A DNA stretch of 64,000 nucleotides from an uncultured Actinomycetes bacterium. Its GTDB lineage: Bacteria > Actinomycetota > Thermoleophilia > RBG-16-64-13. A program made the position numbers and the translations under genes. Location of the stretch: contig CAVPLM010000003.1 of NCBI GenBank assembly GCA_963706025.1, positions 384,001-448,000 on the forward strand. Reading direction: 5' to 3'. The notes beneath the pieces were generated by a model. It was given only the letters and a program-made list of their open reading frames with translations. It searched no databases and was not told the origin of the DNA. Positions within the stretch are counted from its first letter, which is position 1. Each line of letters starts with the position of its first letter. Below are positions 35,822 to 62,340 of the stretch, piece by piece.

Positions 35822-36228
35822 GCCACGTGGAGTTCGACAAGGACAAGTGCACGGACTGTCGCATGTGCATGCAGATCTGTTCGATGAACAAGCTGGGGCG
35901 GGTTACGCCGGCAGCGGCGTGCATCCAGATCGATAGGGAGCGCTCCAAGTACTACGGCGACATGGGCTGCCGGGTCTGCGACATGACCCACGAGCGGGCC
36001 TGCGTGGATGCCTGTCCGGTGGAGGCGCTGATCTACGAGCCGGATCTGGACGTGGTCCGGTTCGACGCCGAGTTGTGCACGGAATGCCTGGCCTGTCTGG
36101 ACGTCTGCCCGAATGTGGCGAGAGATGTGAGGTCCGGCCGGATAATGATCTGCGACCTTTGCGACGGCGACCCCTTGTGTGTCAAGTGGTGCCCCGAAGG
36201 CGCGCTCTCATGGGGGGCAGAGGCATGA
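35818..36228 (+). CDS. 4Fe-4S dicluster protein, small subunit for AOR-1
   Basis: CTDCRMCMQIC, CRVC...CVDACP, CTECLACLDVCP, CDLC...CVKWCP; overlaps the AOR start (ATGA). Confidence 0.9.
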   Translation: MSHVEFDKDKCTDCRMCMQICSMNKLGRVTPAAACIQIDRERSKYYGDMGCRVCDMTHERACVDACPVEALIYEPDLDVVRFDAELCTECLACLDVCPNVARDVRSGRIMICDLCDGDPLCVKWCPEGALSWGAEA

Positions 36229-43354: not shown

Positions 43355-44950
43355 GTGGCCTACTACCGCGACTTCAGGGAGTACGTCGCGAAGCTGGATG
43401 AGATGGGCCTGTTGCGGCGGGTCTCCACCCCCATCAACAAGGATACGGAGCTGATGCCGCTGGTCAGGCTCCAGTTCCGGGGACTACCGCCGGAACAGCG
43501 TACCGCCTGGGTGTTCGACAACATCCACGACGTGCTGGGCAAGAAGTACAACGGGTCTCTGGCCGTCTGCGTGCTCGGCGGAAATCGCGCGATCTATGCG
43601 GCAGCCCTGGGCTGCGAACCGGAAGAGATCAGCAAGAAGTGGGCCCAGGCCCACCAGAGCTGCATCGAGCCGAAGCTGGTCAAGGACGGGCCCTGCAAGG
43701 AAGAGATCCACGTGGGCGACAACCTGCTCGAGCACGACGGCATCCTGGAGTTCCCCCATCCCATATCGACGCCCGGCTTCGATCCCGCGCCCTTTTTTAC
43801 GTCGCCCTACTGGGTGACGAAGGACCCCGAGACCGGCCAGCGCAACATCGGCACGTACCGGGCCATGGTCAAAGGACCGGCCCGCACCGGGGTGATGGCC
43901 CACCAGTCGCAGCACATAGGTATCCACTTCCAGAAGATCCAGCGGCAGGGTGAGCATCGCCTGGATGCCGCGGTGGTCATCGGCTGCGCACCGGCCGTGG
44001 GTTTGTGCAGCGTGGCCAAGGTGCCGTACTCGGTGGACGAATACACGCTGGCGGGGGGTATCGCGGGCGAGCCCATCGAGCTGGTGAAGTGCGAGACTGT
44101 TGACCTGGAGGTGCCGGCGACGGCCGAGATCGTCATCGAAGGCTGGGTGGACACCACCTTCCGGGAGAAGGAAGCCCCCTTCGGCGAGTACACCGGGTAC
44201 ATGGGCGGCCGGGTGATCAACCCGGTCTTCAACGTGACCGCCATCACCCACCGTAAGAACCCCATCTATCAGGCGTTCCTCAGCCAGTTCCCTCCCTCAG
44301 AGAGCAGCCTCATCCGCAAGCTGGCCTATGACGCCGCCTATCTCAAATTCCTGCAGCACGACTGCAACATCCCAGGCGTGCTCGATGTGCAGTTGCATGA
44401 GTCCACCGGCAGTTACGGGCTGATGGTGATCCAACTCAATAAGACCCATCCGGCCCAGCCTTGGCAGGCTTTGAACGCGGCCGTGGCCTTCGATCCCACT
44501 ATCGGCAAGGTGATCGTGGCCGTGGACGACGACATCGATCCCAACGACGCCGACGCCGTGAACTGGGCCATGGCCTTCCGCATGCAGCCTCACCTCGACA
44601 CTCGGATCACCACCGGCAAGGCGTCCATCCTCGATCCCTCGTCGGCGCCGCCGGAGGCTTCGGTGGACGTGCAGCGCTTCCCGCCGCCGGTGGGGACGTC
44701 GTCTCTGCTCATCGATGCCACGAGGAAGTGGGGCTACCCGCCCACTTCGCTCCCGGCCAAGGAGTTCATGGAGGCGGCGCTCGAACGGTGGCAGGCGGAG
44801 GGCCTGCCGGCGCTCAGTCTCAAGAAACCATGGTTCGGCTACGAGCTGGGCCACTGGACCGACGAAGAACGCGAGGACGCCGCCAAAGCCATCCGCGGCG
44901 AGTACCTCGACACCGGCGAGAAGCTTCAACAACATCGCGAGGATCTGTGA
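43355..44950 (+). CDS. UbiD-family (prFMN-dependent) decarboxylase, catabolic paralogue
   Basis: RNIGTYR, VPATAEIVIEG, EAPFGEYTGY, FPPSES, VDDDIDP, LIDATRK. Confidence 0.92.
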   Translation: MAYYRDFREYVAKLDEMGLLRRVSTPINKDTELMPLVRLQFRGLPPEQRTAWVFDNIHDVLGKKYNGSLAVCVLGGNRAIYAAALGCEPEEISKKWAQAHQSCIEPKLVKDGPCKEEIHVGDNLLEHDGILEFPHPISTPGFDPAPFFTSPYWVTKDPETGQRNIGTYRAMVKGPARTGVMAHQSQHIGIHFQKIQRQGEHRLDAAVVIGCAPAVGLCSVAKVPYSVDEYTLAGGIAGEPIELVKCETVDLEVPATAEIVIEGWVDTTFREKEAPFGEYTGYMGGRVINPVFNVTAITHRKNPIYQAFLSQFPPSESSLIRKLAYDAAYLKFLQHDCNIPGVLDVQLHESTGSYGLMVIQLNKTHPAQPWQALNAAVAFDPTIGKVIVAVDDDIDPNDADAVNWAMAFRMQPHLDTRITTGKASILDPSSAPPEASVDVQRFPPPVGTSSLLIDATRKWGYPPTSLPAKEFMEAALERWQAEGLPALSLKKPWFGYELGHWTDEEREDAAKAIRGEYLDTGEKLQQHREDL

Positions 44951-44981: not shown

Positions 44982-46208
44982 ATGGCCGATCTATCCGTCG
45001 ATTTTGCGGGTCTTAAGCTCAAGAACCCGTTCATCATCGCGTCGTCCGAGCTGACCAACAAGATCGACAAGATCAAGATCGCCGAGGAGCATGGAGCCGC
45101 GGCCGTCAGCACCAAGCTGACCTTCTTGCAGATCCCTCTGTACGCCCGTCCCTATCACATCATCGAAAAGGAGGGCGCCTTCTACTCGCCTTCCGGTGAG
45201 CGCATGCGGGTAGATCAGACCCAGCGACTCGTCCAGCAGTGCAAGGAGCAGACCGACCTCAAGGTCATCGCCAACATGATGGGTCCGGGTGAGGATCTGG
45301 AGGGCTGGGCGAAGCTGGCCCGCGCTCTGGAAGAAGCCGGCGCCGACATGCTGGAGCTCAACATGTCCTGCCCGAACCTGGGTCTGATGGCAAAGCAGAT
45401 GGGTGTGGACGAGGAGCCGGAGCTGGGGGCGACACTCGGCAAGGACCCGGTGCTGGCCGGGAAAGTGACCAAGGCCGTCACCGACGCCGTGAAGATCCCT
45501 GTCATGCCCAAGATGACCCCTGAGGCCAACACCATGATGGTGTCGAAGTCGGTCCAGAAGAACGGCGCCGCGGCCGTCTCGGCCATCAACTGCCCACAGT
45601 CGCTGCCCCCGCTGGACATCGACCACGGTGGCCGGCCGTTCTATCCCTCCACCGGCAACCAGTCCTACGCCGGCCTCTGCGGTCCTTGGATCCGGCCGCT
45701 GGCCTATCGGCACGTGGCTCAGATGCGCACCGTCTGCCCCGACCTGCCCATCGCCGGCGGCGGCGGGCTGATGAACTGGCGCCATTCGGTAGAGATGATC
45801 ATGTACGGCGCCACCGTGCTCACTTACTGTTCGCTGCTCTACCTCAAGGGCTACAAGGCCTTCACCAAGATAGAGCCGGGCATGCACAAGTTCATGGACG
45901 AGCACGGCTACAAGACCCTGGCCGACATGCGGGGGATCGCGCTCGAGTACATCGTCACCCCCAAAGAGGTGGACTACATACCGATGCTCCCGGAGTTCGA
46001 CCTGGAGAAGTGCAACGGTTGCGGGCTGTGCGCCGCGCCGGGGCATTGTGAGTGCATCGAGATCGTGGACAAGAAGGCCGTGCTGGTGCAACCGAAGGAA
46101 TGCTATTCCTGCGCCGTCTGCTACTTCCTCTGCCCGAAAGACGCGATCACCATGAAGAACGCGCCGATCGAAGAGACCCGGGCAGGTGTGGCGCTGATGG
46201 AGCAGTGA
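44982..46208 (+). CDS. PreA-like (dihydropyrimidine/dihydroorotate dehydrogenase family) FMN reductase with C-terminal 2x[4Fe-4S] domain
   Basis: LSVDFAGLKLKNPFIIAS, ELNMSCPN (catalytic Cys), KMTP, GPWIRPLA; CNGCGLC and CYSCAVCYFLCP. Confidence 0.85.
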   Translation: MADLSVDFAGLKLKNPFIIASSELTNKIDKIKIAEEHGAAAVSTKLTFLQIPLYARPYHIIEKEGAFYSPSGERMRVDQTQRLVQQCKEQTDLKVIANMMGPGEDLEGWAKLARALEEAGADMLELNMSCPNLGLMAKQMGVDEEPELGATLGKDPVLAGKVTKAVTDAVKIPVMPKMTPEANTMMVSKSVQKNGAAAVSAINCPQSLPPLDIDHGGRPFYPSTGNQSYAGLCGPWIRPLAYRHVAQMRTVCPDLPIAGGGGLMNWRHSVEMIMYGATVLTYCSLLYLKGYKAFTKIEPGMHKFMDEHGYKTLADMRGIALEYIVTPKEVDYIPMLPEFDLEKCNGCGLCAAPGHCECIEIVDKKAVLVQPKECYSCAVCYFLCPKDAITMKNAPIEETRAGVALMEQ

Positions 46209-46233: not shown

Positions 46234-47127
46234 ATGAAGGCTTTTGAATACCTGCGTCCGGCGTCGATCGAGGAGGCGTGCGCGCTCCTGGCCGCCGGTG
46301 ATGGCTCGGTGAAAGTCCTGGCCGGCGGGACCGACCTGCTTGTGCAGATGAAGCAGGGGAAGCTGCAGCCGGAAGCGCTGATCAGCCTTAGGGACGTCCC
46401 CGGGCTTTCGTTCATCCGGCTGGATGGTGACGGGGGCCTTTCACTGGGGGCGGCCACTCCTCTGGGGTCAGTAGAGAGGTCCCCCGAGGTGATCAAGGGC
46501 TTCCCGGCCATTGCGGAGGCGGCCTCATGGATCGGGTCCGTGCAGGTGCGCAGCCGGGCCACCGTGGGAGGCAACCTGTGCAACGCCGCTCCCTCCGCCG
46601 ACATGGCCCCCATCTTGATCGCATTCGGAGCTGAGGCGGTCATTGCTGACGGAGGCGCCGAGCGCACGGTGCCGCTCGAAGACTTCTTCACCGGACCGGG
46701 CCGGACGGCGCTCGGGCCGGGTGAACTGCTCAAGGCCATCAAAGTACCACCGGCGCCCGCCAGGAGTTTTGGAAAATACGTCAAGGCCTACCGGTCCGCG
46801 ATGGACCTCGCCACGGTGGGGGTGGGGGCGCTGGTGGTCTTCGCGCCTGGTTCCGCGCGCTCCCCGGGTGTCGTGGAGGACGTTCGCTTGGTCCTCGGGG
46901 CCGTGGCGCCCACGCCCATCCGTGCGCGCGAAGCCGAGCGGATGCTGACCGGTCACACGCTGGATGAGGAGGTGATCGCGCAGGCGAGCCGCAAAGCCGC
47001 GGAGGAAGCCCGGCCGATCACCGACGTACGCGCCTCGGCCGAGTACCGGACCACCCTGGTGGAGGTCCTGTCTCGCAGGGCTCTTCTTGCGGCGTACTCC
47101 TGGGCCGGAAAAGGAGGACGAGAGTGA
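46234..47127 (+). CDS. Xanthine-dehydrogenase-family FAD subunit (CoxM type)
   Basis: FEYLRP, LAGGTDL, QVRSRATVGGNLCNAAPSAD, GAVAPTP, DVRASAEYR. Confidence 0.95.
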   Translation: MKAFEYLRPASIEEACALLAAGDGSVKVLAGGTDLLVQMKQGKLQPEALISLRDVPGLSFIRLDGDGGLSLGAATPLGSVERSPEVIKGFPAIAEAASWIGSVQVRSRATVGGNLCNAAPSADMAPILIAFGAEAVIADGGAERTVPLEDFFTGPGRTALGPGELLKAIKVPPAPARSFGKYVKAYRSAMDLATVGVGALVVFAPGSARSPGVVEDVRLVLGAVAPTPIRAREAERMLTGHTLDEEVIAQASRKAAEEARPITDVRASAEYRTTLVEVLSRRALLAAYSWAGKGGRE

Positions 47128-47606
47128 AGAGAGAGCTGCACATAACGGTCAACGGCGATGAGTACCATCTGTTCGTCGATGTGCGCCGCACCCTCCTCGA
47201 TGTGATCCGGGAAGACATCGGTCTGACCGGCACCAAGAACAGCTGCGGCGCCGGTGAATGCGGCGCCTGCACGGTATTGCTCGACAACGAGCCGGTCAAC
47301 TCCTGCCTGGTGCTCGCTCACGAGGCCGATGGGCAGGACGTGGTGACCATCGAGGGCCTTGCCCAGGGAGGCGTGCTTCATCCGGTCCAGGAGGCCTTTG
47401 TGGAGCAGGGCGCCATCCAGTGCGGCTTCTGCACGCCGGGCATGGTCATGTCCACGAAGGCCCTGCTCGACCGGAAGCCCAATCCGACCCGGGACGAGAT
47501 CCTCCACGGGCTGAAAGGGAACCTCTGCCGGTGCACAGGCTACGTGAAGATCATCGACGCCGTCGAAGCGGCGAGCTGCCTGCTCGGGGAAGGGGAGTCC
47601 GCATGA
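47124..47606 (+). CDS. Xanthine-dehydrogenase-family 2x[2Fe-2S] subunit (CoxS type)
   Basis: CGAGECGACTV, QCGFCTPG, GNLCRCTGY. Confidence 0.97.
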   Translation: MKRELHITVNGDEYHLFVDVRRTLLDVIREDIGLTGTKNSCGAGECGACTVLLDNEPVNSCLVLAHEADGQDVVTIEGLAQGGVLHPVQEAFVEQGAIQCGFCTPGMVMSTKALLDRKPNPTRDEILHGLKGNLCRCTGYVKIIDAVEAASCLLGEGESA

Positions 47607-49885
47607 ACACCTGCGTGATCGGGAAAGGACTTCCGCGCATCGACGCGGTCCCCAAGGTGACGGGTGAGGCGCAGTACACCGTCGATCTCAAGATGCCGGG
47701 GCTACTCATAGGCAAGATCCTGCGAAGCCCACATCCTCATGCCCTGATCAAGTCCATCGACACCTCGGCCGCGAAGGATCTCAAGGGGGTGCGGGCGGTC
47801 ATCACGGCCGCGGACGTCCCCGAGAACCTCTTCAGCTTCTATCAATGGCTGGCCGACAAGAACATCCTGTGTCGCAGCAGGGTCCGGTACGTGGGTGACG
47901 AGGTCGCCGCGGTGGCGGCTGTTGACGAGGATACGGCCGAAGAGGCGCTCTCGCTCATCAAGGTCGAGTACGAACCTCTTCCCGCGGTCTTCACCCTGGA
48001 GGAGGCAATGCAGCCCGGGGCGCCCCTGGTGCACGAGGACAAAGAGAGCAACGCGACTTGGAGCGTTCAACGCCTGTTCGGCGACCCCGACACGGCCTTC
48101 GCCGAGTGCGACTACGTGATCGAAGGCACGTATGTCACCCACCAGGTGGCGCACACCTGCTTCGAGGTATCCAACTGCATCGCCAAGTGGGACGCCAAAG
48201 ACCGTCTGACCATCTGGACGAACACCCAGGCGCCTCACACGCAGAGACAAGAGGTGGCTCGGATCCTGGGCATCCCCAAACGCAACGTGCGCGTCATCAG
48301 CTCTTACATGGGCGGGGGCTTCGGCTCCAAGCTGGTCATGGACATGAAGCTGCCCATCGCCGCCGTTTTGTCGAAGATGTGCGGGCGCCCGGTGCGCATC
48401 GTGAACACCAGGAGCGAGGAGTTCACTACCGCGAAGACCCGCTATCCCTACACCATGTATCTGAAGACCGGGGCCACCAAAGACGGCCGGATCGTGGCCC
48501 GGGAGCTCAAGGTTCTTGCGGACGCTGGTGCATATCACGACAAAGGGCCCGCCACGATCAACTTCGCCAGCATGATGTTCGGCACCCTCTACAACGTGGC
48601 CAACATGCGCTTCGACGGTCAACTGGTATACACCAACAAGGAGATGGGCACTGCCTTTCGCGGCTTCGGGAATCCGCAGGTTTCCTTCGCCACCGAGACA
48701 CAACTCGACGAACTGGCCGAGAAGATGGGCATGGACCCGCTGGAGCTCCGGCTCAAGAACTCCAACCAGGCCGGTGTGGAGACCGCCTGCGGCGCCGAGG
48801 TCTGCGGGTGCGCGATGACCGAATGCATAGTGGCCGCGGCCGAAGGCATCGAGTGGGACAAGAAGAGGGGCAAGAAGGCGAACGGCAGGCTGCGCGGCGT
48901 GGGCATGGCCAACATGGTCCATACCGGTGGCGGCGGACGCTTCTACGGATACAACTCGGCGGAAGCCTTCGTGAAGCTCTCGGATGAGGGGACGGTGACC
49001 CTCATCACTTCCGCCCTCGACATGGGCCAGGGAGCGCATACGGCCATGGCGATGATCGTGGCCGAAGAGCTGGGAGTCAATCTGGGCGACATCAACGTGC
49101 TGTCCCACGACACCGACCTCACGCCCTACGACCTGGGCTCCTGGGGGAGCCGGGCCACGTTCATGAACGGCAACGCCGTTCTTGCGGCAGCCCGGGACGC
49201 GAGGAACGCGGTGGGAGAGGCCGCGGCCGAGATGTTGGAGGCCGACGCGAAGGACATTATCGTGGAGGGAGGCAAGGTCTGGGTCAGAGGCTCGGAAGAG
49301 AAGCACGACCTGGCCGAGATCGTCGAGCACGCGGTGAACGCCCATGGCTCTCCGCTCTCCGGGACGGGCAAGTTCGTCGACTCTCTGCCCGCGGGGTATA
49401 CGATCCCCACCGCCTTCATCAAGAACATCCCCTGCTTCTCGTTCGGCACCCAGGCGGCCGAAGTGGAGATAGACCCGGAAACCGGTCAGGTGAAAGTCCT
49501 CAAGGTGGTGGCCGCCCACGAGACGGGTACCACCATCAACCAGACCATGGTCGAGGGGCAGATCGAGGGCAGCGTGGCTCAAGGTGTGGGCTACGCTCTG
49601 GTGGAGCAGTTGATCCGCGATGAGAGCGGTAAGATCCTCAACGACAGCTTCCTCGATTACAAGATCGCCAACATCGGAGACATACCGGAAATCGTAGCCA
49701 TCGGGGTGGAGAGTCTGGGCACGAACGGCCCCTACGGCGCGAAGGGCATCGGAGAGCCGGGTCTGGTCCCGACTGCCCCGGCGATAGCCAACGCGATCTT
49801 CGACGCGATCGGGGTCCGGTTCTACGAATTGCCCATCACGCCTGACAAGGTACTGAGAGCACTGGAAGCGAAGAGATCGAAGTAG
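47603..49885 (+). CDS. Xanthine-dehydrogenase-family molybdopterin large subunit
   Basis: KVTGEAQY, GGGFGSK, AFRGFGNPQ, DMGQG, EGQIEG, GAKGIGEP. Lacks the CO-dehydrogenase AYxCSFR loop. Confidence 0.95.
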   Translation: MNTCVIGKGLPRIDAVPKVTGEAQYTVDLKMPGLLIGKILRSPHPHALIKSIDTSAAKDLKGVRAVITAADVPENLFSFYQWLADKNILCRSRVRYVGDEVAAVAAVDEDTAEEALSLIKVEYEPLPAVFTLEEAMQPGAPLVHEDKESNATWSVQRLFGDPDTAFAECDYVIEGTYVTHQVAHTCFEVSNCIAKWDAKDRLTIWTNTQAPHTQRQEVARILGIPKRNVRVISSYMGGGFGSKLVMDMKLPIAAVLSKMCGRPVRIVNTRSEEFTTAKTRYPYTMYLKTGATKDGRIVARELKVLADAGAYHDKGPATINFASMMFGTLYNVANMRFDGQLVYTNKEMGTAFRGFGNPQVSFATETQLDELAEKMGMDPLELRLKNSNQAGVETACGAEVCGCAMTECIVAAAEGIEWDKKRGKKANGRLRGVGMANMVHTGGGGRFYGYNSAEAFVKLSDEGTVTLITSALDMGQGAHTAMAMIVAEELGVNLGDINVLSHDTDLTPYDLGSWGSRATFMNGNAVLAAARDARNAVGEAAAEMLEADAKDIIVEGGKVWVRGSEEKHDLAEIVEHAVNAHGSPLSGTGKFVDSLPAGYTIPTAFIKNIPCFSFGTQAAEVEIDPETGQVKVLKVVAAHETGTTINQTMVEGQIEGSVAQGVGYALVEQLIRDESGKILNDSFLDYKIANIGDIPEIVAIGVESLGTNGPYGAKGIGEPGLVPTAPAIANAIFDAIGVRFYELPITPDKVLRALEAKRSK

Positions 49886-49906
49886 TCACGTGCAGTAGTC
49901 ACGTGC
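49881..49906 (+). repeat. 13-bp tandem duplication at the junction of the Mo subunit and yqeC
   Basis: AGTAGTCACGTGC twice; each copy contains TAG and GTG. Confidence 0.9.
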
Positions 49907-51411
49907 AGGCCACCGCGCACGAAACTCTCTCCGGCGCCCTTGGTCTGGGGCGCCGGGAGTTGGTGGCGCTGGTTGGCGGGGGCGGCAAGACCGGCGCGCT
50001 GCGCCTTCTTGCCCGCGAGTTGACCGCGCCTGGGCGCCGCGTGGTGGCAACGACGACGACGGCCATGTTCCTCCGAGAGTTGAGCGAGGCCGGTCCGGTG
50101 GTCATGGGCGCGACCCTGCCCGACTTGCTGGCGGGCGTCGAAGAGGCTCTCGCGCAGGGAGCGGCGCAGGGAGCGGCGGTGGGGGCCGCGCGCATGCCTG
50201 TCGACCAGGACAAGGTGATGGGCCTTCCTGCCGACTGGGTGGATCGGCTCTGGGCGAAGGGCGCGGAAGGGCGCGACCCCTTGGAGATGGTCTGCGGAGC
50301 GGCTGCTCCAACGGTCGACTTTCCCGCCCCACTTGACTACCTGCTCGTCGAGGCCGACGGGAGCCGGGGAAGGCCGCTCAAGGCCTTCGGGGCTCACGAG
50401 CCCCAGGTTCCTGACGCGACGACCACCGTCGTGCAGGTCGCCGGATTGGATGCCCTCGGTGCCCCGCTGACCGAAGAGTACGTGCATCGCGCCGGTTTGC
50501 TTGCCTCCGCGTTGCGGGTGCCGGTCGGCTCGAAGATAACGGCCCCTGTCTTCGCGGGCTGTCTGCGCGAGCAGGTGCAGGTGATCAGGCGCCGCTGGCC
50601 GGATGTCCGGGTCGTCACCCTGCTGAACAAGGCCGAAAGGCCGGAGGATGAAGCCGCAGGACTGGAGTTGGCCGGGGAGTTGCTGGGGGCGCCTGTCGGC
50701 AATGGCGGGGGCGATGCCCGAGGCTACAGGCCGGACTCCGTCGTAGTGGGCAGTCTTCAGGAGAGGCGCTTCGTGCGCGCCCGAAAGAGCGTGTCGGTCG
50801 CCGCGATCGTGCTGGCTGCAGGCCTCGGGACCCGGATGGGAGGCCAGAAGGTACTGTTTCCCCTGGGGGAACGTTCATTGGTGCAATGGGTAGTGGATGC
50901 AGCCCTGGGCTCGGGGGCTGCCGAGACGATCTTGGTGGTGGGGCATGAGGCGGGATCGGTGGCCGACGCGGTGAAAGACCGGCCGGTGAACGTGGTGGTC
51001 AACCCTGATCACGCCGAGGGCATGAGTACTTCTCTTCAGGCCGGGGTGCGGGCCGTCCGGCCGGACTGCGACGCGGCCGTCTTCATGCTTGGGGATCAGC
51101 CGTTCGTCACGTCGGCGCTCGTGGATGGGCTGATCGAGCGGTTCGCCGAGAACGAAGCCTGGGTGGTCAGACCCGTTCTTGGGAACCGGCCTATCCACCC
51201 GGTGCTCATGAGCGCGGCGCTCTTCCCGGAGATCTTGAGTCAGCGCGGCGACATCGGCGGCCGCGAGATCGCCCGGCGTCATCCGGAGCGGGTCAGCCTG
51301 GTGCCTGTGGACGACAGTCGGTTAGACTTGGACGTCGATACGGGTGAGGACTACGAGGAGGCCCTTCGGATCCGGGGCTGCTCGGCGGAGCGAGTGGCAG
51401 GAGACCAATGA
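49903..51411 (+). CDS. yqeC: YqeC (Se-dependent Mo-hydroxylase accessory protein) fused to a MocA-like cytidylyltransferase
   Basis: VGGGGKT, TTTT and LVEADGSRGRPLKA...HEP (YqeC); LAAGLGTRMGGQK, GMSTSL, LGDQP, GDIGGR and DVDT (MocA). Confidence 0.88.
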   Translation: MQATAHETLSGALGLGRRELVALVGGGGKTGALRLLARELTAPGRRVVATTTTAMFLRELSEAGPVVMGATLPDLLAGVEEALAQGAAQGAAVGAARMPVDQDKVMGLPADWVDRLWAKGAEGRDPLEMVCGAAAPTVDFPAPLDYLLVEADGSRGRPLKAFGAHEPQVPDATTTVVQVAGLDALGAPLTEEYVHRAGLLASALRVPVGSKITAPVFAGCLREQVQVIRRRWPDVRVVTLLNKAERPEDEAAGLELAGELLGAPVGNGGGDARGYRPDSVVVGSLQERRFVRARKSVSVAAIVLAAGLGTRMGGQKVLFPLGERSLVQWVVDAALGSGAAETILVVGHEAGSVADAVKDRPVNVVVNPDHAEGMSTSLQAGVRAVRPDCDAAVFMLGDQPFVTSALVDGLIERFAENEAWVVRPVLGNRPIHPVLMSAALFPEILSQRGDIGGREIARRHPERVSLVPVDDSRLDLDVDTGEDYEEALRIRGCSAERVAGDQ

Positions 51412-52244
51412 GGAGACAGGAGCTATACGCGCAGATGGCCGACCTCACCGGACGAGGGGTGCCGTTCGTCCTTGCCACCATCATCGGGACTTCAGGCTCC
51501 AGCCCGCGCGGCGTGGGGACGAAGATGCTCGTCATGGGAGACGGCAAGACCGTCGAGACGATCGGCGGAGGAGCACTGGAGAAGCAGGTCATAGCCGATG
51601 CTCTGACCTGTCTTGTCTCCGGGGCGTCCCGCATCGAGCGTTACGAACTGCGCGCGCAGGGAGATCACGCTCTGGGTACTTTGTGCGGAGGGGAGGCTAC
51701 GGTCTTCCTGGAGGCGCACGTGCCGGATCGCACTCTTCTCATCGTGGGAGCCGGCCACGTGGGCCGTAGTCTCTGCCGGTGCGCCAAGCTGCTCGACTAT
51801 CAGGTGGTGGTGCTGGACCCCCGGGAAGACATGGTGACTCCGGAACGCTATCCCGAGGCCGACCGGTTGATCTGCGGCGATCCGGCGCAGACCGCGGACC
51901 TGTTCCCCATCTCGTCGACGACCCACGTGGTCATCGTTACCCACGGCCATCAGCTCGACAAAGACGCCCTGCTTTCGGTGATCGGTTCTCCCGCCGCCTA
52001 CATCGGGATGATGGGGAGCGCCACCAAAGTGCGGGCCGTTCTCGCTCAGCTCCGGGAGGCCGGGGTCGATCCAGGACTGCTCGACCGGGTTCATGCTCCC
52101 ATAGGTCTGGATATCGGGGCTGAGACCCCCGCCGAGCTGGCGCTTTGCATCATGGCCGAGATAGTGGCCGATGGCTACGGCAGGCTGAGCGGACTGAGAA
52201 ACGCAGCCGCTGAGACTGGAGTCCGGGAGGGGTGTGGGGAGTGA
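51408..52244 (+). CDS. xdhC: XdhC/CoxI-family molybdenum-cofactor insertion chaperone
   Basis: GSSPRGVGTKM, TIGGGALE, CGG, GAGHVG, YIGMMGS, PIGLDIGAETPAELA. Confidence 0.92.
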   Translation: MRRQELYAQMADLTGRGVPFVLATIIGTSGSSPRGVGTKMLVMGDGKTVETIGGGALEKQVIADALTCLVSGASRIERYELRAQGDHALGTLCGGEATVFLEAHVPDRTLLIVGAGHVGRSLCRCAKLLDYQVVVLDPREDMVTPERYPEADRLICGDPAQTADLFPISSTTHVVIVTHGHQLDKDALLSVIGSPAAYIGMMGSATKVRAVLAQLREAGVDPGLLDRVHAPIGLDIGAETPAELALCIMAEIVADGYGRLSGLRNAAAETGVREGCGE

Positions 52245-53095
52245 TGACGGTCTCCGCGCCCGTGACCCCCGTCAGTCCCAGCCGGCGGCCGGTGGCTCTG
52301 GTCAAAGGGGCCGGGGACCTGGCGAGCGGGATAGCCGTTAGGCTTCATCGGGCCGGGTTCGCGGTGGTGATGACCGAGATCGACCGTCCGACCGCGGTGC
52401 GCCGCACTGTGGCTTTCGCGGAAGCCGTCTATGAAGGGTCCGTGGAGGTGGAAGGCATCGAGGGAGTGAAGGCGCCGGACGCGGAAACGGTCCGGCGGCT
52501 CCTCGCGGCCGGGAAGATTCCCGTGATAGTCGACCCTGAGGCCCTCATCAGACGCGAAATCGCGCCACTCCTCGTGGTCGACGCCATCCTGGCCAAGCGC
52601 AACCTGGGCACCCGGATCACGGATGCCCCGGCCGTGGTAGCGCTGGGGCCGGGATTCGTCGCCGGAGTCGACGCGCACGCCGTCGTCGAGACGAAACGCG
52701 GCCATGCTCTGGGCAGGGTGATCTGGCGAGGGGAGGCCTACCCCGACACCGGCGTTCCCGGAGAGGTGGGCGGCTTTGGAGAGGAGCGCGTGCTTCGCGC
52801 GCCCGGACCGGGAGTGTTCGAGGGCACGAAGGAGATCGGCGCCATGGTCGCGGCGGGCGAGATCGTGGGCCAGGTCGGAGACGCTCCGGTCCGGGCTCGT
52901 CTGGACGGAGTGCTGCGCGGCCTGCTTCGCTCCGGATTGGAGGTGACCGGCGGGTCCAAGCTGGGCGATGTCGATCCCCGGGCCACCCGGGAAAACTGCT
53001 TTCTGGTCTCGGATAAGGCTTTGGCGATCGCGGGCGGAGTGCTTGAAGCCGCCTGTGGTCTTTTGGGCGGCGTGCGTTTCGTGGTCGATCGCTGA
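52244..53095 (+). CDS. yqeB: YqeB-family selenium-dependent Mo-cofactor protein
   Basis: VKGAGDLASG, AVRRTVAFAEA, DAILAKRNLGT, ETKRGHALG, KLGDVDPR, SDKALAIAGGVLEA. Confidence 0.92.
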   Translation: MTVSAPVTPVSPSRRPVALVKGAGDLASGIAVRLHRAGFAVVMTEIDRPTAVRRTVAFAEAVYEGSVEVEGIEGVKAPDAETVRRLLAAGKIPVIVDPEALIRREIAPLLVVDAILAKRNLGTRITDAPAVVALGPGFVAGVDAHAVVETKRGHALGRVIWRGEAYPDTGVPGEVGGFGEERVLRAPGPGVFEGTKEIGAMVAAGEIVGQVGDAPVRARLDGVLRGLLRSGLEVTGGSKLGDVDPRATRENCFLVSDKALAIAGGVLEAACGLLGGVRFVVDR

Positions 53096-53113: not shown

Positions 53114-54118
53114 GTGAAGTCCTACACTACTCTCATCAAGGGCGCCCGACTGGTCGTCGAGACCTGCTTCGCCGTGAAGGCCGGCGATGCGGTGCTCATC
53201 ATCTGTGACGAGGATCACCGGCGTGAAGCGGAGGCTATAGCCGGGGTGGCGGTGTCGCTGGGCGCCTATCCGGTGGTCGCCGACATCTCCCATCATGTCA
53301 GCTCGGCGCTCGCGTCGATGAAGGTTCCCATGGAGCCGGCCAAGAACCTGGCAGCCGCGATGGAGGCTTCGGACGTCATCATCATCACCACCAACCTGGA
53401 GTGGGCCAACCGCTTCGCCCACGTCAATCCTGTGGCCGCCAGCGTGAGCAAAGGGGCCAAGATCGGCTCGGTGGAAGAGGGCATGGCCGACTGGGATCTG
53501 ACCAAGGAGGAGATCGACCAGACCGTCGCCCGGGCAGAGAAGCTCATGGCCGCGCTTGAAGGGGTGGAGTGGGTGCGGGTGACCAACCCGGCCGGTACGG
53601 ACGTCAAGGTCTGCATCAAAGACCGTCCGCCCCTGAAGGTGGTGCCCATCAAGGGTGCGGGAGAGATGATGGGCCCGGTGCCCCTGTGGGGCGAAGTGGC
53701 CTATGCCGCGGTGGAAGACAAGACCGAGGGCGTGATAGTCGTCGATGGCATCATGCTGGGAGTGGGGGTCTTCGGCTCACTGCAGAACACCATCACGTGG
53801 GTCATCAAGGACGGCCGGGCGGTGGAGATCACCGGCGGAGCCGAAGCCGAGCGGCTGCGCAACGTGGTAGCCGGTTCGGACGAGAACGCCAATGTCGTGG
53901 CCGAGTTCGCCATGGGGACCAGCACCAAATCGCCGCGAGGCTCGGCGTCGGAGAAAGGGCTGCTCGGCACGGTGCATTTCGCCCTGGGTGACAACTCCCA
54001 CTGCTATCCCGGGGGCTGCAGCCACAGCAGTCTGCACCTCGACGGCAACCTGCTGAACGTGACGGTCGAGACCGGCGATGGCCGCGTGCTCATCAAGGAC
54101 GGGGAGTTGGTGATCTGA
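53114..54118 (+). CDS. M29/aminopeptidase-T-like metalloprotein (fold shared with NicX)
   Basis: GTD, GEV...EGVIVVDG, AEFAMG, GTVHFALGDN...GG...LHLDG...IKDG. Confidence 0.78.
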   Translation: MKSYTTLIKGARLVVETCFAVKAGDAVLIICDEDHRREAEAIAGVAVSLGAYPVVADISHHVSSALASMKVPMEPAKNLAAAMEASDVIIITTNLEWANRFAHVNPVAASVSKGAKIGSVEEGMADWDLTKEEIDQTVARAEKLMAALEGVEWVRVTNPAGTDVKVCIKDRPPLKVVPIKGAGEMMGPVPLWGEVAYAAVEDKTEGVIVVDGIMLGVGVFGSLQNTITWVIKDGRAVEITGGAEAERLRNVVAGSDENANVVAEFAMGTSTKSPRGSASEKGLLGTVHFALGDNSHCYPGGCSHSSLHLDGNLLNVTVETGDGRVLIKDGELVI

Positions 54119-54550
54119 ATGGGTGAGGATACGGGGGACGGCGAGAAGAGAGCCGGCGGGATCAACGACGTCGAAAGCGCACTCGAGAAGATATGCGTGG
54201 TCGATCTCAGCGAGGGTAAACGGACCGACCTGCCCGACGGAAGCTGGGTGTGCGAATTGGTATCGAAGGCCTTGAACGGGGCGGAGGGCACCTGCATGGG
54301 CTTCTCCACGTGGAAGCCGGGGGCCTCGACGAAGCAGATGGTGCACGAGACCGAGGAGATGGCCTATATCGTCTGCGGCGAAGGTAAGCTCTCGGTCGGC
54401 GACAAGTTTGTCTCGTACAAGGCCGGCCAGGGAGTGCTCATCCCGGCGGGGGTCCCGCACGGAGTGGTCAACGATTCCGATGAGGATATGACCATGGTCT
54501 ACATCTTCTCCTATCCAGAGTACCCGCCGACGAAGGCGGCCGGAGAGTAG
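54119..54550 (+). CDS. Cupin-domain protein
   Basis: HETEEMAYIVCGEG and GVLIPAGVPHGVVN cupin motifs. Confidence 0.85.
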   Translation: MGEDTGDGEKRAGGINDVESALEKICVVDLSEGKRTDLPDGSWVCELVSKALNGAEGTCMGFSTWKPGASTKQMVHETEEMAYIVCGEGKLSVGDKFVSYKAGQGVLIPAGVPHGVVNDSDEDMTMVYIFSYPEYPPTKAAGE

Positions 54551-54665: not shown

Positions 54666-56151
54666 TCAGCTCCCGCAGGCGCGGATGATCACGTCCCGGT
54701 AGATCTCCACGCATCGGTGGAGATCGACGAGGGGCACGTGCTCGTTGGGCTTGTGGATGTTCCCCGCAGCCTGGCCGGGGCCGAAGACGATCGTGTCCAT
54801 GCCCGCTTCCCGGTAGACAGGGGCTTCCGTGGTACCGCTCTTCAGCTCCGGCTCCAGTGGTAGACCGCGCGTGCCCAACTCGACCATCAGCGCGGCCAGC
54901 ATGTCTGAGTCATCGACGGCCCGGAAGGGGGCGCTTTCGAGGATCCTCTCGGTGCCGAGCCTCAGACCCTCGCCGTGAGGGGGGCTCAGATCCTCCAGGG
55001 CTTTGAGCGCGGTTTCGTGGGCGTCGAGCATCTCGGTCGGCAACTCCCCCGGGACCGTCCTGACGTCGAGCACGTACGACAAACGGGCCTGGTCCAAGCT
55101 CACCAGTCCATTGTTGACGGTGCTGAACGGAGGATCGAATCCAGGTGCCTCGCAAGGCGCGCAGTCCTCGTTCCAGATCGCGGGTAAGAGAGTGGACAGT
55201 GAGGAGCAGCCTGGCGAGCTCTGGGGACCAGACTGCGTCCCCGGAGGGCACGGCAGGTTCAACGCTGCAACTGACGCCTGCCGCAGCTGCCGCGGGAGTC
55301 AGAAGGCTGCCCGCGTCAGGAGCGGTGCCGGCGACCACGACGGCCTCACACCGGGCGGCCACCTTGTTGACGGCGTCCCCGCCCCGGACTGAGACTATCG
55401 CGGGGACGTCATACGCACCGCTGCTCTCTGCCGCCCCGGTCAGAGACGCCAACGCATCGAGGCAGGCGGTGTTGGCCGAAGCCCCTCGGTGAGGCTGGGA
55501 CGAGTGCGCGGCGATACCCGCAAACACCAGGCGCCAGCAGGGCAGGGATGGGATTCGCAGCGGAGTCGGGTCACTGCCCTCGGTGCGGAACTCCAGGTAG
55601 CCCTTGTGCGCGGTACAGGGTCGTAGGCCCGTGGGCTCGCCTACCAGGACGCAGCGCGGAACGGCTCCGCTGCCGCGTACCTGCAACTCCCGCACCAGCA
55701 GCTTCGCGCCATAGCGGCCGGTCTCCTCTCCGTACGTGGCCGCCAGGGCCACGTTGTGGCGCAGATGGACGTCACGAAGCGACTCCAAGGCCAGCAGCTT
55801 GCAGAGCAGATCGAGCTTCACGTCGGCAGTGCCCAGTCCGTAGAGCAGGCCCTCGTGCTGGGTGAGGGAGAAGGGGTCACCCTCCGTGGCCGTCCACAGC
55901 GAGGCATCTCCCGGAGGCACGGTGTCGGTGTGGGTCGCCAGAAGAAGCGTGTCTCGGTCGAGTGGCCCGCGGGAGGCGAGCAGGTTGTACTGCTGCACCC
56001 CCCCTTGGGTCTCTTGTTGAAGTGAGGTCTCCAGACCGGCAAGTTGGCACAGGGGGATCAGGAACTCGATGAGCCCGATATTCGAGACAGCCGATCTGGT
56101 GTCGATGGCGATCATCCGTCGAGCGAGCGAAAGGAGATCGAGGGTCGTCAT
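54666..56151 (-). CDS. M20 metallopeptidase/deacylase (ArgE/DapE-like; frameshift near 55150)
   Basis: THTDTVP, GLGTADVK, GEE, VGEPT, AHSSQP; second frame has TEAP and FGPG...HKPNE. Confidence 0.85.
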
Positions 56152-56275
56152 CCGCGCCGTCCTTTCCGATCCGAAGCCGGGTGCTGTGTCTGTTCGGGGA
56201 GATCCTGGTCCGCGAACGTGCCGCGTGCTTGAATGTAGGCTGCAAGAGGGGGTTTTGCAAGACGGGAAAGAGGCT

Positions 56276-62329: not shown

Positions 62330-62340
62330 AAGGAGGGACG

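What the first reader, a model, noticed from the sequence alone, without database searches (positions are those of the whole stretch)
46234..53095. Mo enzyme with its own selenium/MCD maturation kit
Seen: FAD, Fe-S and Mo subunits followed directly by yqeC-mocA (fused), xdhC and yqeB. Known: yqeB/yqeC mark the labile-selenium Mo-hydroxylase trait, as in nicotinate, xanthine and purine hydroxylases of anaerobes. The large subunit has AFRGFG, and the FAD subunit lacks the [4Fe-4S] insert of 4-hydroxybenzoyl-CoA reductase. That favours hydroxylation (C6 is the only free ring carbon next to N) over reductive dehydroxylation, although GSWGSRATFMNGNA recalls HcrA. Inference: a new Se-dependent pyridine hydroxylase, in a pathway that would need W, Mo and Se.
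Basis: partly seen in the sequence, partly recalled or inferred. Interest (0 to 1): 0.72.

Follow-up and report, generated by a model that had tools for sequence, protein, structure and literature searches.

The report
Selenium-type molybdenum hydroxylase in B6 cluster
Six adjacent genes encode a xanthine-oxidase-family molybdenum enzyme and the helper proteins that mark the rare selenium-containing form of such enzymes, set inside a gene cluster that looks like an oxygen-free route for breaking down vitamin B6.

Summary
Window 46234-53095 (+) holds, gene after gene, an FAD subunit, a 2x[2Fe-2S] subunit, a 760-aa Mo subunit (true start 47603), a YqeC-MocA fusion, an XdhC-like gene and YqeB. 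YqeB and YqeC pass NCBIfam's curated cut-offs, and selD is in the genome.

Compared half by half, the closest solved relative is the Mo=Se nicotinate dehydrogenase of Eubacterium barkeri, ahead of 4-hydroxybenzoyl-CoA reductase (HCR). HCR's hallmarks are absent: its cut-off is not reached, there is no [4Fe-4S] insert, and the motif is AFRGFG, not AMRGHG.

The neighbours read as vitamin B6 catabolism: a 4-pyridoxolactonase equivalog, a pyridoxamine-pyruvate transaminase homologue, two alcohol dehydrogenases, two AOR-family enzymes and a UbiD decarboxylase. A DPD-like reductase sits directly upstream of the enzyme. A protein whose model matches 2,5-dihydroxypyridine dioxygenase NicX sits directly after the kit. 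Hydroxylation of a 3-hydroxypyridine at C6 would give exactly a 2,5-dihydroxypyridine.

Best reading (about 0.5): a selenium-dependent hydroxylase of a B6-derived pyridine carboxylate.

Caveats:
- Two related genomes keep the B6 cluster without this cassette, and their only close copy lies in a phloroglucinol-type cluster.
- Reductive family members without the insert are now known.
- Nothing is biochemically shown.

New member of a known kind; no published anaerobic B6 pathway was found.

The parts
46234..47127 (+). FAD-binding medium subunit (297 aa), CoxM/CutM type, without a [4Fe-4S] insert
   Evidence: PF00941 175.5 bits and PF03450 95.2 bits. Best solved match is CutM 1ffu_C, 143.8 bits, colinear over 3-289. 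HcrB 1rm6_B aligns only over 4-117.
47124..47606 (+). [quoted passage not shown]
   Evidence: PF01799 119.5 bits and PF00111 34.5 bits. NCBIfam hits to XdhC_XDHase, 4-HBCR gamma and PucE are all below their cut-offs.
47603..49885 (+). Molybdopterin (MCD) large subunit, 760 aa, unsplit. It has the hydroxylase-type motifs TNTQAP, GGGFGSKL, AFRGFG and GIGEPG.
   Evidence: Start fixed from the sequence. Pfam domains PF01315, PF02738 and PF20256. PDB halves: NdhL 301.4 bits against HcrA 272.9; NdhM 214.8 against HcrA 183.4. TIGR03194 669.6 bits, below its 994.55 cut-off.
49903..51411 (+). YqeC-MocA fusion (502 aa): putative Se-cofactor accessory domain plus Mo-cofactor cytidylyltransferase domain
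   Evidence: TIGR03172 128.8 bits, above the 73.05 cut-off. TIGR03310 162.4 bits, below 186.45. PF19842 over 21-197 and PF12804 over 301-462. The fusion is hit in 14 of 32 related loci. The two genes are separate in the second kit on contig C28.
51408..52244 (+). XdhC-like Mo-cofactor insertion chaperone (278 aa)
   Evidence: PF02625 79.4 bits and PF13478 150.6 bits. NF045664 243.5 bits and TIGR02964 138.7 bits, both below cut-off. Adjacent XdhC + TIGR03309 genes mirror the fused forms described in PMC2276186 (passages).
52232..53095 (+). YqeB (287 aa), the marker of the labile-selenium Mo-hydroxylase trait
   Evidence: TIGR03309 353.7 bits, above the 220 cut-off.
44982..46208 (+). PreA/DPD-like FMN reductase with a C-terminal 2x[4Fe-4S] part (408 aa), 25 nt upstream of the FAD subunit
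   Evidence: PF01180. NF006183 PreA 232.3 bits, below 335. Best solved match is pig DPD residues 531-823, 107.1 bits. It lies directly upstream of the trio in 16 of the 19 loci with enough flank.
53114..54118 (+). NicX-fold protein (334 aa), 18 nt after yqeB
   Evidence: Precomputed PF26233 NicX on the window's own protein P0272. Atlas clusters carry NicX in 96-100% of members. AF2 model has pLDDT 91. Best fold match is 7cn3_A NicX, E 3.9e-23, TM 0.80/0.77.
54119..54550 (+). Small cupin (143 aa)
   Evidence: PF07883 63.7 bits. Conserved after the NicX-like gene.
54910..56457 (-). M20 ArgE/DapE-type deacylase; the true start is probably later than the longest ORF
   Evidence: PF01546 and PF07687. 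TIGR01892 148.3 bits, below cut-off. Relatives align from about residue 65-98 onward.
43355..44950 (+). UbiD-family (prFMN) decarboxylase
   Evidence: TIGR00148 255.7 bits, above 244.85. Best solved match is 6h6x, 195.6 bits. UbiX is in the genome.
41480..43345 (+). AOR-family (tungsten-type) aldehyde:ferredoxin oxidoreductase 2
   Evidence: PF02730 and PF01314.
40313..41461 (+). Fe-type alcohol dehydrogenase
   Evidence: PF00465 and PF25137.
39183..40220 (+). Zn-type alcohol dehydrogenase
   Evidence: PF08240 and PF00107.
38363..39154 (+). GntR/UTRA regulator
   Evidence: PF00392 and PF07702.
36075..38030 (+). AOR-family aldehyde:ferredoxin oxidoreductase 1
   Evidence: PF02730 and PF01314.
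34637..35821 (+). Pyridoxamine-pyruvate transaminase homologue
   Evidence: NF046070 432.9 bits, below 600. M. loti PPAT 2z9u scores 365.5 bits; the next best solved chain scores 150.6.
29604..34588 (+). Bmp-type ABC uptake system: binding protein, ATPase and two permeases
   Evidence: NF047927 'putative B6 ABC transporter substrate-binding protein' 356.1 bits, below 400. PF02608, PF00005 and PF02653.
27800..28642 (-). 4-pyridoxolactonase equivalog
   Evidence: NF047925 380.1 bits, above the 325 cut-off.

Best explanation
The six genes form a self-contained cassette for a three-subunit xanthine-oxidase-family molybdenum hydroxylase. Electrons would flow from Mo-MCD through 2x[2Fe-2S] to FAD.

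The Mo centre is matured locally. MocA makes the cytosine dinucleotide cofactor and XdhC inserts it. YqeB and YqeC, using selenophosphate from SelD, give the Mo a labile selenido ligand, as in nicotinate dehydrogenase of Eubacterium barkeri.

The proposed reaction takes the B6-derived pyridine carboxylate left after the upstream steps: transamination, two alcohol oxidations, two aldehyde oxidations and UbiD decarboxylation. The most likely substrate is 2-methyl-3-hydroxypyridine-5-carboxylate. The enzyme adds a water-derived OH at C6, the only free carbon next to the ring N. The product is a 2,5-dihydroxypyridine-type pyridone. The flanking DPD-like reductase, the NicX-fold protein, the cupin and the M20 deacylase would then reduce, open and deacylate it.

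Shown: gene content, family memberships, motif pattern, selD, conserved neighbourhood.
Inferred: Se in the enzyme, direction of the reaction, substrate and position, order of the later steps.
For: 1. Family and kit. YqeB and YqeC are above their curated cut-offs. selD scores 388 bits.

2. YqeB as Se marker. YqeB is restricted to selD-positive genomes and linked to Se-dependent Mo hydroxylases (PMC2276186, passages). yqeB and selD are needed for growth on xanthine and urate in C. difficile (PMC11448449, abstract). DOPDH purified from a selD mutant is inactive (bioRxiv 10.1101/2025.04.24.650524, passages).

3. Closest solved relative. In both halves it is the Mo=Se nicotinate dehydrogenase: 301.4 against 272.9 bits, and 214.8 against 183.4 bits for HcrA. 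Shared motifs are AFRGFG, GGGFG-KL and G-GEP.

4. Motif conservation. Among the 120 homologues, all but 3 (P0043, P0063, P0093) gave FRGFG as the first match of my motif pattern. In the tree, the xRGHG HcrA-like representatives form a separate clade.

5. B6 context. 4-pyridoxolactonase equivalog above cut-off. PPAT homologue 365.5 bits against 150.6 for the next chain. B6-type binding protein. Two ADHs, two AORs and one UbiD match the two hydroxymethyl groups of pyridoxine.

6. Flanking genes. DPD-like reductase upstream in 16 of 19 loci. NicX-fold protein downstream in 10 of 14 loci. A C6-OH on a 3-hydroxypyridine gives the 2,5-dihydroxypyridine pattern that NicX cleaves between C5 and C6 (PMC7910607, passages).

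7. Possible linkage in other phyla. This suggests linkage beyond Thermoleophilia but does not prove it.
Against: 1. Detached copies. In two related genomes (G001, G002) the B6-type cluster runs UbiD-PreA-NicX-like with no Mo trio or kit between. Their only close Mo copy (80-82% identity) sits among pyrogallol-transhydroxylase-like, BKACE, SDR, 3-HCDH and cyclase genes with an IclR regulator. That is a phloroglucinol-type context (shown for G001; for G002 one search shows only that no B6-cluster genes lie nearby). These copies form their own clade. L032 has the trio but no kit.

2. Best NCBIfam model. The top hit for the Mo subunit is HcrA (669.6 bits), although below its cut-off.

3. Reductive family members. 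Ucdh is a three-subunit, NADH-driven phenol dehydroxylase. Se-dependent DOPDH runs physiologically in reverse.

4. Weak points in the Se argument. The yqeC mutant of C. difficile had no phenotype. One of three relatives examined (G003) has no selD above cut-off; its completeness is unknown. The MocA domain is below its cut-off.

5. Oxygen problem. The only characterised NicX is an O2-dependent dioxygenase. This genome shows no haem-copper or bd oxidase at 92% completeness.

6. No experimental data of any kind.
Confidence: 0.5

Rival explanations
1. Reductive dehydroxylase. The enzyme runs with inverted electron flow, like 4-hydroxybenzoyl-CoA reductase or urolithin C dehydroxylase. It removes the phenol-type 3-OH of a B6-derived pyridine carboxylate, for example while the 4-carboxylate is still ortho to it. 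In the detached copies it would remove an OH from a polyphenol.
For: HcrA is the best NCBIfam model (669.6 bits) and the best full-length solved hit (477.2 bits). GSWGSRATFMNGNA is close to HcrA's GSYSSRVTFMVGNA. Ucdh shows that a three-subunit family member can dehydroxylate with NADH. Close copies sit in a polyphenol/phloroglucinol-type cluster.
Against: The score is below the HcrA cut-off. There is no [4Fe-4S] insert. The motif is AFRGFG, not AMRGHG. xRGHG relatives form another clade. None of the ORFs I scanned shows a CoA ligase domain. All Se-dependent members named in the papers I read act at a carbon next to a ring N. A dehydroxylated product would not fit a NicX-fold neighbour.
Confidence: 0.13
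2. Hydroxylase of another N-heterocycle or aromatic acid, not of a B6 intermediate. Candidates are nicotinate-like or picolinate-like compounds, or a hydroxy-aromatic acid. The cassette would be a mobile module that merely landed between PreA and NicX-like in most Thermoleophilia.
For: The cassette is absent from that position in G001 and G002 and lies elsewhere. The closest solved enzyme acts on nicotinate. The PPAT and binding-protein models are below their equivalog cut-offs.
Against: The trio lies between PreA and NicX-like in most loci with enough flank: PreA upstream in 16 of 19, NicX-like downstream in 10 of 14. Spacing is operon-like, with 17-31 nt gaps or overlaps between UbiD and the cupin. 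The lactonase equivalog is above cut-off. In G001 and G002 there is only one close copy, which could serve the B6 cluster in trans.
Confidence: 0.17
3. Aldehyde oxidoreductase. The enzyme oxidises pyridoxal, or the 5-formyl intermediate, to the acid, as eukaryotic aldehyde and pyridoxal oxidases of this family do. That eukaryotic role is recalled, not taken from any call.
For: The family includes aldehyde oxidoreductases. Glyceraldehyde dehydrogenase and D. gigas-type AOR models and chains hit all three subunits. XdhC's best model is 'XdhC family aldehyde oxidoreductase maturation factor', 243.5 bits, below cut-off.
Against: Two AOR-family enzymes already cover the two aldehyde steps. The aldehyde-oxidoreductase models score well below the HcrA, XdhA and Ndh matches. 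No Se-dependent aldehyde oxidoreductase appears in the papers read.
Confidence: 0.07
4. Ordinary sulfido-type Mo hydroxylase. This rival is independent of the substrate question. The enzyme carries Mo=S, and YqeB/YqeC have another role or serve another enzyme.
For: The biochemical role of YqeB and YqeC is unproven, and a yqeC deletion had no phenotype. L032, G001 and G002 keep the trio without an adjacent kit. The genome has further yqeB-yqeC copies elsewhere.
Against: The kit directly follows the Mo gene in 9 of 14 loci. YqeB is above cut-off. selD is present. The nearest solved structure is the Mo=Se enzyme.
Confidence: 0.22

Closest known systems
Nicotinate dehydrogenase NdhFSLM of Eubacterium barkeri (PDB 3hrd), a Se-dependent Mo hydroxylase
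   Same: It is the best solved match for both halves of the Mo subunit: 301.4 and 214.8 bits. It shares the motifs AFRGFG, GGGFG-KL and G-GEP. It has separate FAD and 2x[2Fe-2S] subunits and acts on a pyridine carboxylate. The Se trait is implied here by YqeB/YqeC.
   Different: Ndh's Mo subunit is split into L (425 aa) and M (330 aa), whereas here it is one 760-aa chain. The FAD subunit here is closer to CutM (143.8 bits) than to NdhF (88.7 bits). Nicotinate's C6 position carries a methyl group in B6 compounds, so the attacked carbon would be the one next to the carboxyl-bearing carbon. I did not look for nicotinate-fermentation genes as neighbours.
4-hydroxybenzoyl-CoA reductase HcrABC of Thauera aromatica (PDB 1rm6)
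   Same: It is the best full-length solved hit (477.2 bits) and the best NCBIfam model. The G-S-x-x-SR-x-TFM-x-GNA stretch is similar.
   Different: The score is below the TIGR03194 cut-off (669.6 against 994.55). HcrA has AMRGHG and GGGFGAR where the query has AFRGFG and GGGFGSK. There is no [4Fe-4S] insert in the FAD subunit. No CoA ligase is seen nearby. HCR is not linked to a Se kit; that point is recalled.
Se-dependent purine enzymes: XDH and purine hydroxylase of clostridia, and 2,8-dioxopurine dehydrogenase DOPDH
   Same: Same trait markers, selD and YqeB/YqeC. In each case a Mo enzyme is followed by a DPD-like reductase and by hydrolases, including an M20 protein. The DPD-like nature of DOPOR/YgfK is recalled.
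   Different: All xanthine-dehydrogenase NCBIfam models are below cut-off: 619.1 against 780, 591.2 against 916, 489.7 against 783.65. The context is B6, not purine.
Urolithin C dehydroxylase UcdhABC of Enterocloster bolteae
   Same: Three-subunit XO-family enzyme with an XdhC helper, from an anaerobe.
   Different: It is reductive and NADH-driven, and its authors place it closest to 4-HBCR. The word 'selenium' does not occur in that text.
Aerobic vitamin B6 degradation pathway I (Mesorhizobium loti / Pseudomonas MA-1) and the NicX step of aerobic nicotinate degradation
   Same: PPAT homologue, 4-pyridoxolactonase equivalog and NicX fold. NicX cleaves between the OH-bearing C5 and C6 of 2,5-dihydroxypyridine. 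That maps onto the C2-C3 bond that MHPC oxygenase opens; this mapping is my own, and the aerobic pathway itself is recalled.
   Different: The oxidases and oxygenases of the aerobic route are replaced here by AOR-family enzymes, UbiD, a Mo hydroxylase and a DPD-like reductase. The genome shows no terminal oxidase.

Membership tests
Xanthine oxidase / CO dehydrogenase family, three-subunit type | Hammerhead plus two MoCo-binding domains in the large subunit; Fer2 + Fer2_2 in the small subunit; FAD_binding_5 + CO_deh_flav_C in the medium subunit | tested here: met
   All seven Pfam domains are far above their gathering scores.
Xanthine oxidase / CO dehydrogenase family, three-subunit type | Active-site Gln, the FRGFG loop and the C-terminal catalytic Glu (G-GEP) | tested here: met
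   TNTQAP, AFRGFG and GIGEPG align with the same motifs of NdhL and NdhM. The roles of these residues are recalled from bovine XDH.
Selenium-dependent molybdenum hydroxylase (SDMH) trait | YqeB (TIGR03309) present | tested here: met
   353.7 bits against a 220 cut-off, three genes after the Mo subunit gene.
Selenium-dependent molybdenum hydroxylase (SDMH) trait | YqeC (TIGR03172) and MocA/YgfJ (TIGR03310) present | tested here: met
   YqeC scores 128.8 bits against 73.05. The MocA domain scores 162.4 bits, below 186.45, but PF12804 gives 132.8 bits.
Selenium-dependent molybdenum hydroxylase (SDMH) trait | selD in the genome | tested here: met
   G000:C5:742679-743602, 388.1 bits against 125, with one in-frame TGA.
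Selenium-dependent molybdenum hydroxylase (SDMH) trait | Labile, cyanide-releasable Se on Mo that is required for activity | not testable with these tools
   Needs purified enzyme, with ICP-MS, 75Se or 77Se EPR.
4-hydroxybenzoyl-CoA reductase | Alpha subunit reaches the TIGR03194 equivalog cut-off | tested here: not met
   669.6 bits against 994.55. A representative with AMRGHG (P0164) reaches 960.3 bits.
4-hydroxybenzoyl-CoA reductase | [4Fe-4S]-binding insert in the FAD subunit | tested here: not met
   297 aa, colinear with CutM. HcrB (324 aa) aligns only over 4-117. TIGR03195 scores 130.5 bits against 404.55.
4-hydroxybenzoyl-CoA reductase | CoA-thioester substrate, implied by a CoA ligase in the cluster | tested here: not met
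   No AMP-binding or CoA-ligase domain in the ORFs scanned. Only selected ORFs of the window were scanned.
Nicotinate dehydrogenase NdhFSLM | Mo subunit split into L and M chains | tested here: not met
   A single 760-aa frame from 47603 to 49885.
Nicotinate dehydrogenase NdhFSLM | Orthology shown by a tree with the characterised enzyme | not testable with these tools
   No NdhL or NdhM sequence could be obtained. Only pairwise scores against 3hrd are available.
Xanthine dehydrogenase (XdhA / PucD equivalogs) | Reaches the curated cut-off of any XDH equivalog model | tested here: not met
   NF043082 619.1 against 780; NF007426 591.2 against 916; TIGR03196 489.7 against 783.65; TIGR03311 378.6 against 830.45.
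NicX (2,5-dihydroxypyridine 5,6-dioxygenase), for the neighbouring gene | Fold, plus the Fe(II) ligands His265, Ser302, His318 and Asp320 | tested here: inconclusive
   The fold is met: 7cn3_A, TM 0.80, E 3.9e-23. PF26233 is precomputed on the protein. An invariant H308-x-D310 exists in the family alignment. No residue-level alignment to NicX was obtained, and phmmer finds no solved relative.

The most novel reading that the evidence does not exclude
The cassette is the oxygen-independent ring-activating step of a so far undescribed anaerobic pathway for vitamin B6 degradation. A selenium-containing Mo hydroxylase installs a water-derived OH at C6, in place of the O2-dependent MHPC oxygenase. 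The resulting 2,5-dihydroxypyridine-type intermediate is then reduced by a DPD-like enzyme and opened by a NicX-fold protein that works without O2. The pathway as a whole would need W, Mo, Se and prenylated FMN, and it occurs in several anaerobic phyla.
Probability: 0.33. Interest if true: 0.8.

Novelty: new member of a known kind. Interest (0 to 1): 0.6.

Why it matters
Only a handful of selenium-dependent Mo hydroxylases are known, acting on nicotinate, xanthine, purine and 2,8-dioxopurine. How YqeB and YqeC load selenium is still unsolved. A compact operon that holds the enzyme and the kit (a MocA-YqeC fusion, XdhC and YqeB) is a convenient unit for reconstitution.

If the substrate assignment holds, it gives the first O2-independent way to attack the vitamin B6 ring. 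It would also show how anaerobes in sediments and soils recycle a cofactor. Four literature searches found no description of such a pathway.

The NicX-fold protein in an apparent strict anaerobe is a separate puzzle. It is either a non-oxygenase use of that fold or an O2-scavenging step.

Tried and rejected
1. No sequence of a characterised enzyme could be obtained, so I did not build it. Substitutes were half-wise scores against solved chains. I also built a FastTree of 154 sequences: 12 orthologues, 141 of the 150 representatives (those between 690 and 830 aa, with P0164 trimmed), and the C21 paralogue as root. Nine representatives were dropped for length.

2. tblastn against plasmids, to find annotated anchors. 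It returned 578 records, all below 60% identity. The 40 listed rows were 41.2-41.5% identical and were either unannotated or named only 'xanthine dehydrogenase family protein'. Not used.

3. The metagenome scan returned mostly relatives of 79-99% identity, plus two weaker partial matches at 69% and 50%. Gene context in other phyla therefore stays untested. The only hint is equal longest-contig lengths.

4. phmmer of the NicX-like protein against solved structures found nothing below E 0.2. Only the fold search linked it to NicX.

5. HCR membership and xanthine-dehydrogenase membership: rejected on cut-offs and motifs.

6. Earlier-findings look-ups by place and by words returned nothing.

7. 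I considered a complex prediction for the DPD-like protein with the trio. I did not send it, because I do not claim that they bind.

Full report
OBSERVATION

The interval 46234-53095 holds six co-directional genes with overlaps or gaps of at most 17 nt.
- FAD subunit, 46234-47127, 297 aa.
- 2x[2Fe-2S] subunit, 47124-47606, 160 aa.
- Mo subunit. The longest frame starts at 47258. The real start is the ATG at 47603, in an ATGA overlap with the Fe-S stop, giving 760 aa.
- YqeC-MocA, 49903-51411, one 502-aa frame.
- XdhC-like, 51408-52244.
- YqeB, 52232-53095.

YqeB (TIGR03309, 353.7 against 220 bits) and YqeC (TIGR03172, 128.8 against 73.05 bits) pass NCBIfam's curated cut-offs. The MocA part (TIGR03310) scores 162.4 bits, just below 186.45, but it is a clear NTP_transf_3 domain. 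The only correction is the start of the Mo gene.

WHAT THE ENZYME RESEMBLES

Over its full length, the best solved chain is HcrA of 4-hydroxybenzoyl-CoA reductase (477.2 bits). The best NCBIfam model is also HcrA (669.6 bits, far below its 994.55 cut-off). This ranking is partly an artefact, because nicotinate dehydrogenase of E. barkeri has its Mo subunit split in two chains.

Queried in halves, NdhL beats HcrA for residues 1-420 (301.4 against 272.9 bits). NdhM beats HcrA for residues 431-760 (214.8 against 183.4 bits).

The alignments show three diagnostic positions:
- Query GTAFRGFGNPQ and NdhL SGAFRGFGVPQ, against HcrA CGAMRGHGTVD.
- Query GGGFGSKL and Ndh GGGFGGKL, against HcrA GGGFGART.
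- Query GAKGIGEPGL and NdhM GAKGVGEPAL, against HcrA GAKEASEGML.

The FAD subunit is an ordinary CutM-type protein, colinear over 3-289. HcrB aligns only up to residue 117, so the [4Fe-4S] insert is absent.

All but 3 of the 120 closest homologues gave FRGFG as the first match of my motif pattern. I built a FastTree of 154 sequences, rooted on the genome's distant C21 paralogue. In it the orthologues form a tight clade among FRG[FY]G-bearing representatives. The representatives with xRGHG form a separate subclade that joins only nine nodes up; one of them, P0164, reaches 960 bits on the HcrA model.

SELENIUM

selD is present (388 bits, one in-frame TGA, so the organism also decodes selenocysteine). 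The refutation condition 'no selD' is therefore not met.

The literature basis for the trait:
[quoted passage not shown] The adjacent XdhC-like and YqeB genes here look like the split form of that fusion.
- yqeB and selD, but not yqeC, are needed for growth on xanthine and urate in C. difficile (PMC11448449, abstract).
- DOPDH purified from a selD mutant is inactive (bioRxiv 10.1101/2025.04.24.650524, passages).

Selenium in this enzyme is a well-founded inference, not a demonstration.

CONTEXT

The surrounding genes read as a vitamin B6 catabolic cluster:
- A 4-pyridoxolactonase equivalog above cut-off (27800-28642, minus strand; 380.1 against 325 bits).
- A Bmp-type binding protein whose best model is 'putative B6 ABC transporter' (356 against 400 bits).
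- A class-V transaminase that matches M. loti pyridoxamine-pyruvate aminotransferase at 365.5 bits, against 150.6 for the next solved chain.
- A GntR regulator, a Zn-ADH and an Fe-ADH.
- Two AOR-family enzymes.
- A UbiD decarboxylase, whose best solved relative is 6h6x. I recall that entry as a furandicarboxylate decarboxylase.
- UbiX elsewhere in the genome.

Two alcohol and two aldehyde oxidations plus one decarboxylation match what pyridoxine's two hydroxymethyl groups require to reach a pyridine monocarboxylate. The aerobic pathway I compare this with is recalled.

Directly upstream of the FAD gene lies a DPD-like FMN/[4Fe-4S] reductase. Directly after yqeB lies a 334-aa protein that Pfam's newer release files under NicX (PF26233, precomputed on the window's own protein; Atlas). 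Its AlphaFold model (pLDDT 91) matches P. putida NicX best: TM 0.80, E 3.9e-23, ahead of the M29 peptidases at TM 0.65-0.70.

NicX cleaves 2,5-dihydroxypyridine between C5 and C6 (PMC7910607, passages). A 3-hydroxypyridine hydroxylated at C6 is a 2,5-dihydroxypyridine. The C5-C6 bond then maps onto the C2-C3 bond of the B6 ring. A cupin follows the NicX-like gene, and an M20 ArgE-type deacylase lies next on the opposite strand. This neighbour is the strongest new argument for hydroxylation and against removal of the 3-OH.

CONSERVATION

I examined 32 related loci, mostly from Thermoleophilia MAGs and metagenome contigs.
- The DPD-like gene precedes the trio in 16 of the 19 loci with enough upstream flank.
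- YqeB follows in 9 of the 14 loci with at least 3.3 kb downstream.
- NicX-like follows in 10 of those 14.

Twelve pairs of Mo-subunit and NicX-like homologues at about 55-71% identity report identical longest-contig lengths. One pair is named Thermodesulfobacteriota. This hints at linkage in other phyla.

RESULTS AGAINST THE READING

L018, L019 and L021 carry the trio at 79-82% identity in a different setting, and L018 and L019 form their own clade (L021 was left out of that tree because its frame holds stops).

In L018 the neighbours are pyrogallol-transhydroxylase-like genes, BKACE, an SDR, a 3-hydroxyacyl-CoA dehydrogenase, a cyclase and an IclR regulator. That is a phloroglucinol-type cluster, with no kit.

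The genomes holding L018 and L021 (G001, G002) have only this one close copy. Yet they keep the B6-type cluster, where the DPD-like gene is followed directly by NicX-like. Their single yqeB lies about 2.5 kb from a split, NdhL-like half gene.

L032 has the trio followed at once by NicX-like, without the kit. G003 shows no selD above cut-off.

The cassette is therefore movable. The enzyme either works in trans in those genomes or is not tied to B6.

The family also now contains reductive members without the HCR insert:
- Ucdh, a three-subunit, NADH-driven dehydroxylase.
- The Se-dependent DOPDH, which runs physiologically in reverse.

Finally, the known NicX needs O2. This 92%-complete genome shows neither a haem-copper nor a bd oxidase, so the NicX-fold protein here may do different chemistry.

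MECHANISM PROPOSED

- MocA makes MCD and XdhC inserts it.
- YqeB and YqeC, with SelD-derived selenophosphate, give a Mo=Se centre.
- The enzyme abstracts hydride from C6 of the B6-derived pyridine carboxylate and adds OH from water.
- Electrons leave through the two [2Fe-2S] clusters and FAD to an unknown acceptor.
- The neighbouring DPD-like reductase could take up two electrons again. That would make the pair redox-neutral, as in nicotinate fermentation (recalled).
- Ring opening and removal of an N-acyl group would fall to the NicX-fold protein, the cupin and the M20 enzyme.

Family membership, motifs, kit, selD and neighbourhood are shown. Substrate, position, direction and selenium content are inferred.

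COMPARISON AND NOVELTY

The enzyme works like the Se-dependent nicotinate dehydrogenase. It is not a member of that enzyme's own orthologous group as far as I could test: it is unsplit, has a different FAD subunit and a different context. It is not HCR and not a xanthine dehydrogenase.

It is best filed as a new member of the selenium-dependent Mo hydroxylases, with a probable new substrate class.

Four literature searches found no anaerobic B6 pathway. The library excludes most subscription journals, and I read no supplements.

An earlier finding of this scan in another genome (e1-5167129) reached the same reading. It is not independent evidence. I re-derived its two main points here: Ndh as the closest solved relative, and the B6 neighbourhood.

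VERDICT

Observation confirmed. Interpretation supported as far as sequence can carry it, with confidence of about 0.5 for the specific function. Interest 0.6.

Noticed in passing
window 53114-54118 (+): A NicX-fold protein (PF26233; TM 0.80 to 7cn3) sits in a genome with no detectable haem-copper or bd oxidase at 92% completeness. The only characterised NicX is an O2- and Fe(II)-dependent ring-cleaving dioxygenase. Here the fold may serve an oxygen-free reaction, or the organism meets traces of O2.
   Followed up: partly
window 27800-28642 (-) and 28827-29561 (+): A 4-pyridoxolactonase equivalog (NF047925, 380 against 325 bits) lies on the minus strand. Next to it is an Amidohydro_2 (PF04909) ORF, just upstream of the B6-type ABC transporter. 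Both extend the B6 cluster to about 27.8 kb.
   Followed up: partly
G000:C28:62-4549 (locus L027): A second yqeB, yqeC and mocA set, here as three separate genes, directly follows an AOR-family (tungsten-type) gene at a contig start, with no XDH-family gene on that 22-kb contig. It is followed by a Peripla_BP_6 binding protein and an isochorismatase-family gene. A third, frameshifted copy lies on C23.
   Followed up: partly
G000:C21 (locus L028 3360-7094, minus strand): This is the only other XDH-family large subunit in the genome (29% identical). It is paired with an FAD_binding_5 domain fused to a DPD-type Fer4_20 domain and a pyridine-nucleotide-disulphide-oxidoreductase-like domain, a YgfK/YgfM-like arrangement.
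   Followed up: no
L018 1-22277; G001:C27 and G002:C26: A close copy of the FAD/Fe-S/Mo trio (79-82% identity) sits with an IclR regulator. In L018 it lies among three pyrogallol-transhydroxylase-like gene pairs and phloroglucinol-pathway-like genes (BKACE, SDR, 3-HCDH, cyclase). The same genomes keep a B6-type cluster that lacks the trio.
   Followed up: yes
G001:C16:269970-274440 and G002:C31:29252-33735: In these relatives the single yqeB lies about 2.5 kb from a 450-485-aa ORF that matches only the N-terminal half of the Mo subunit (40-42% identity). This is a split, NdhL-like large subunit and so possibly a nicotinate-dehydrogenase-type enzyme.
   Followed up: no
G000:C5:742679-743602 (-): selD carries one in-frame TGA, as do the selD genes of G001 and G002. 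This indicates a selenocysteine-containing SelD and a working Sec-decoding system.
   Followed up: no
window 11308-18140 (+): A molybdate/tungstate-type ABC transporter (PBP_like_2, and an ABC ATPase with TOBE) is followed by MobA-MobB, MoaA, MoaC, a MOSC-domain protein and a MoaB/Mog-like gene. This is a cofactor supply block 11 kb upstream of the B6 cluster. Futalosine-type menaquinone genes lie at 21208-27788.
   Followed up: no
window 58776-63488 (+): HdrA2-like flavoprotein (748.7 bits, below cut-off), an MvhD/FlpD-domain protein and a further Fe-S protein lie downstream of the cluster. They are conserved next to it in L017, L034, G001 and G002. They are possible electron-bifurcating partners for the ferredoxin-linked steps.
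   Followed up: no
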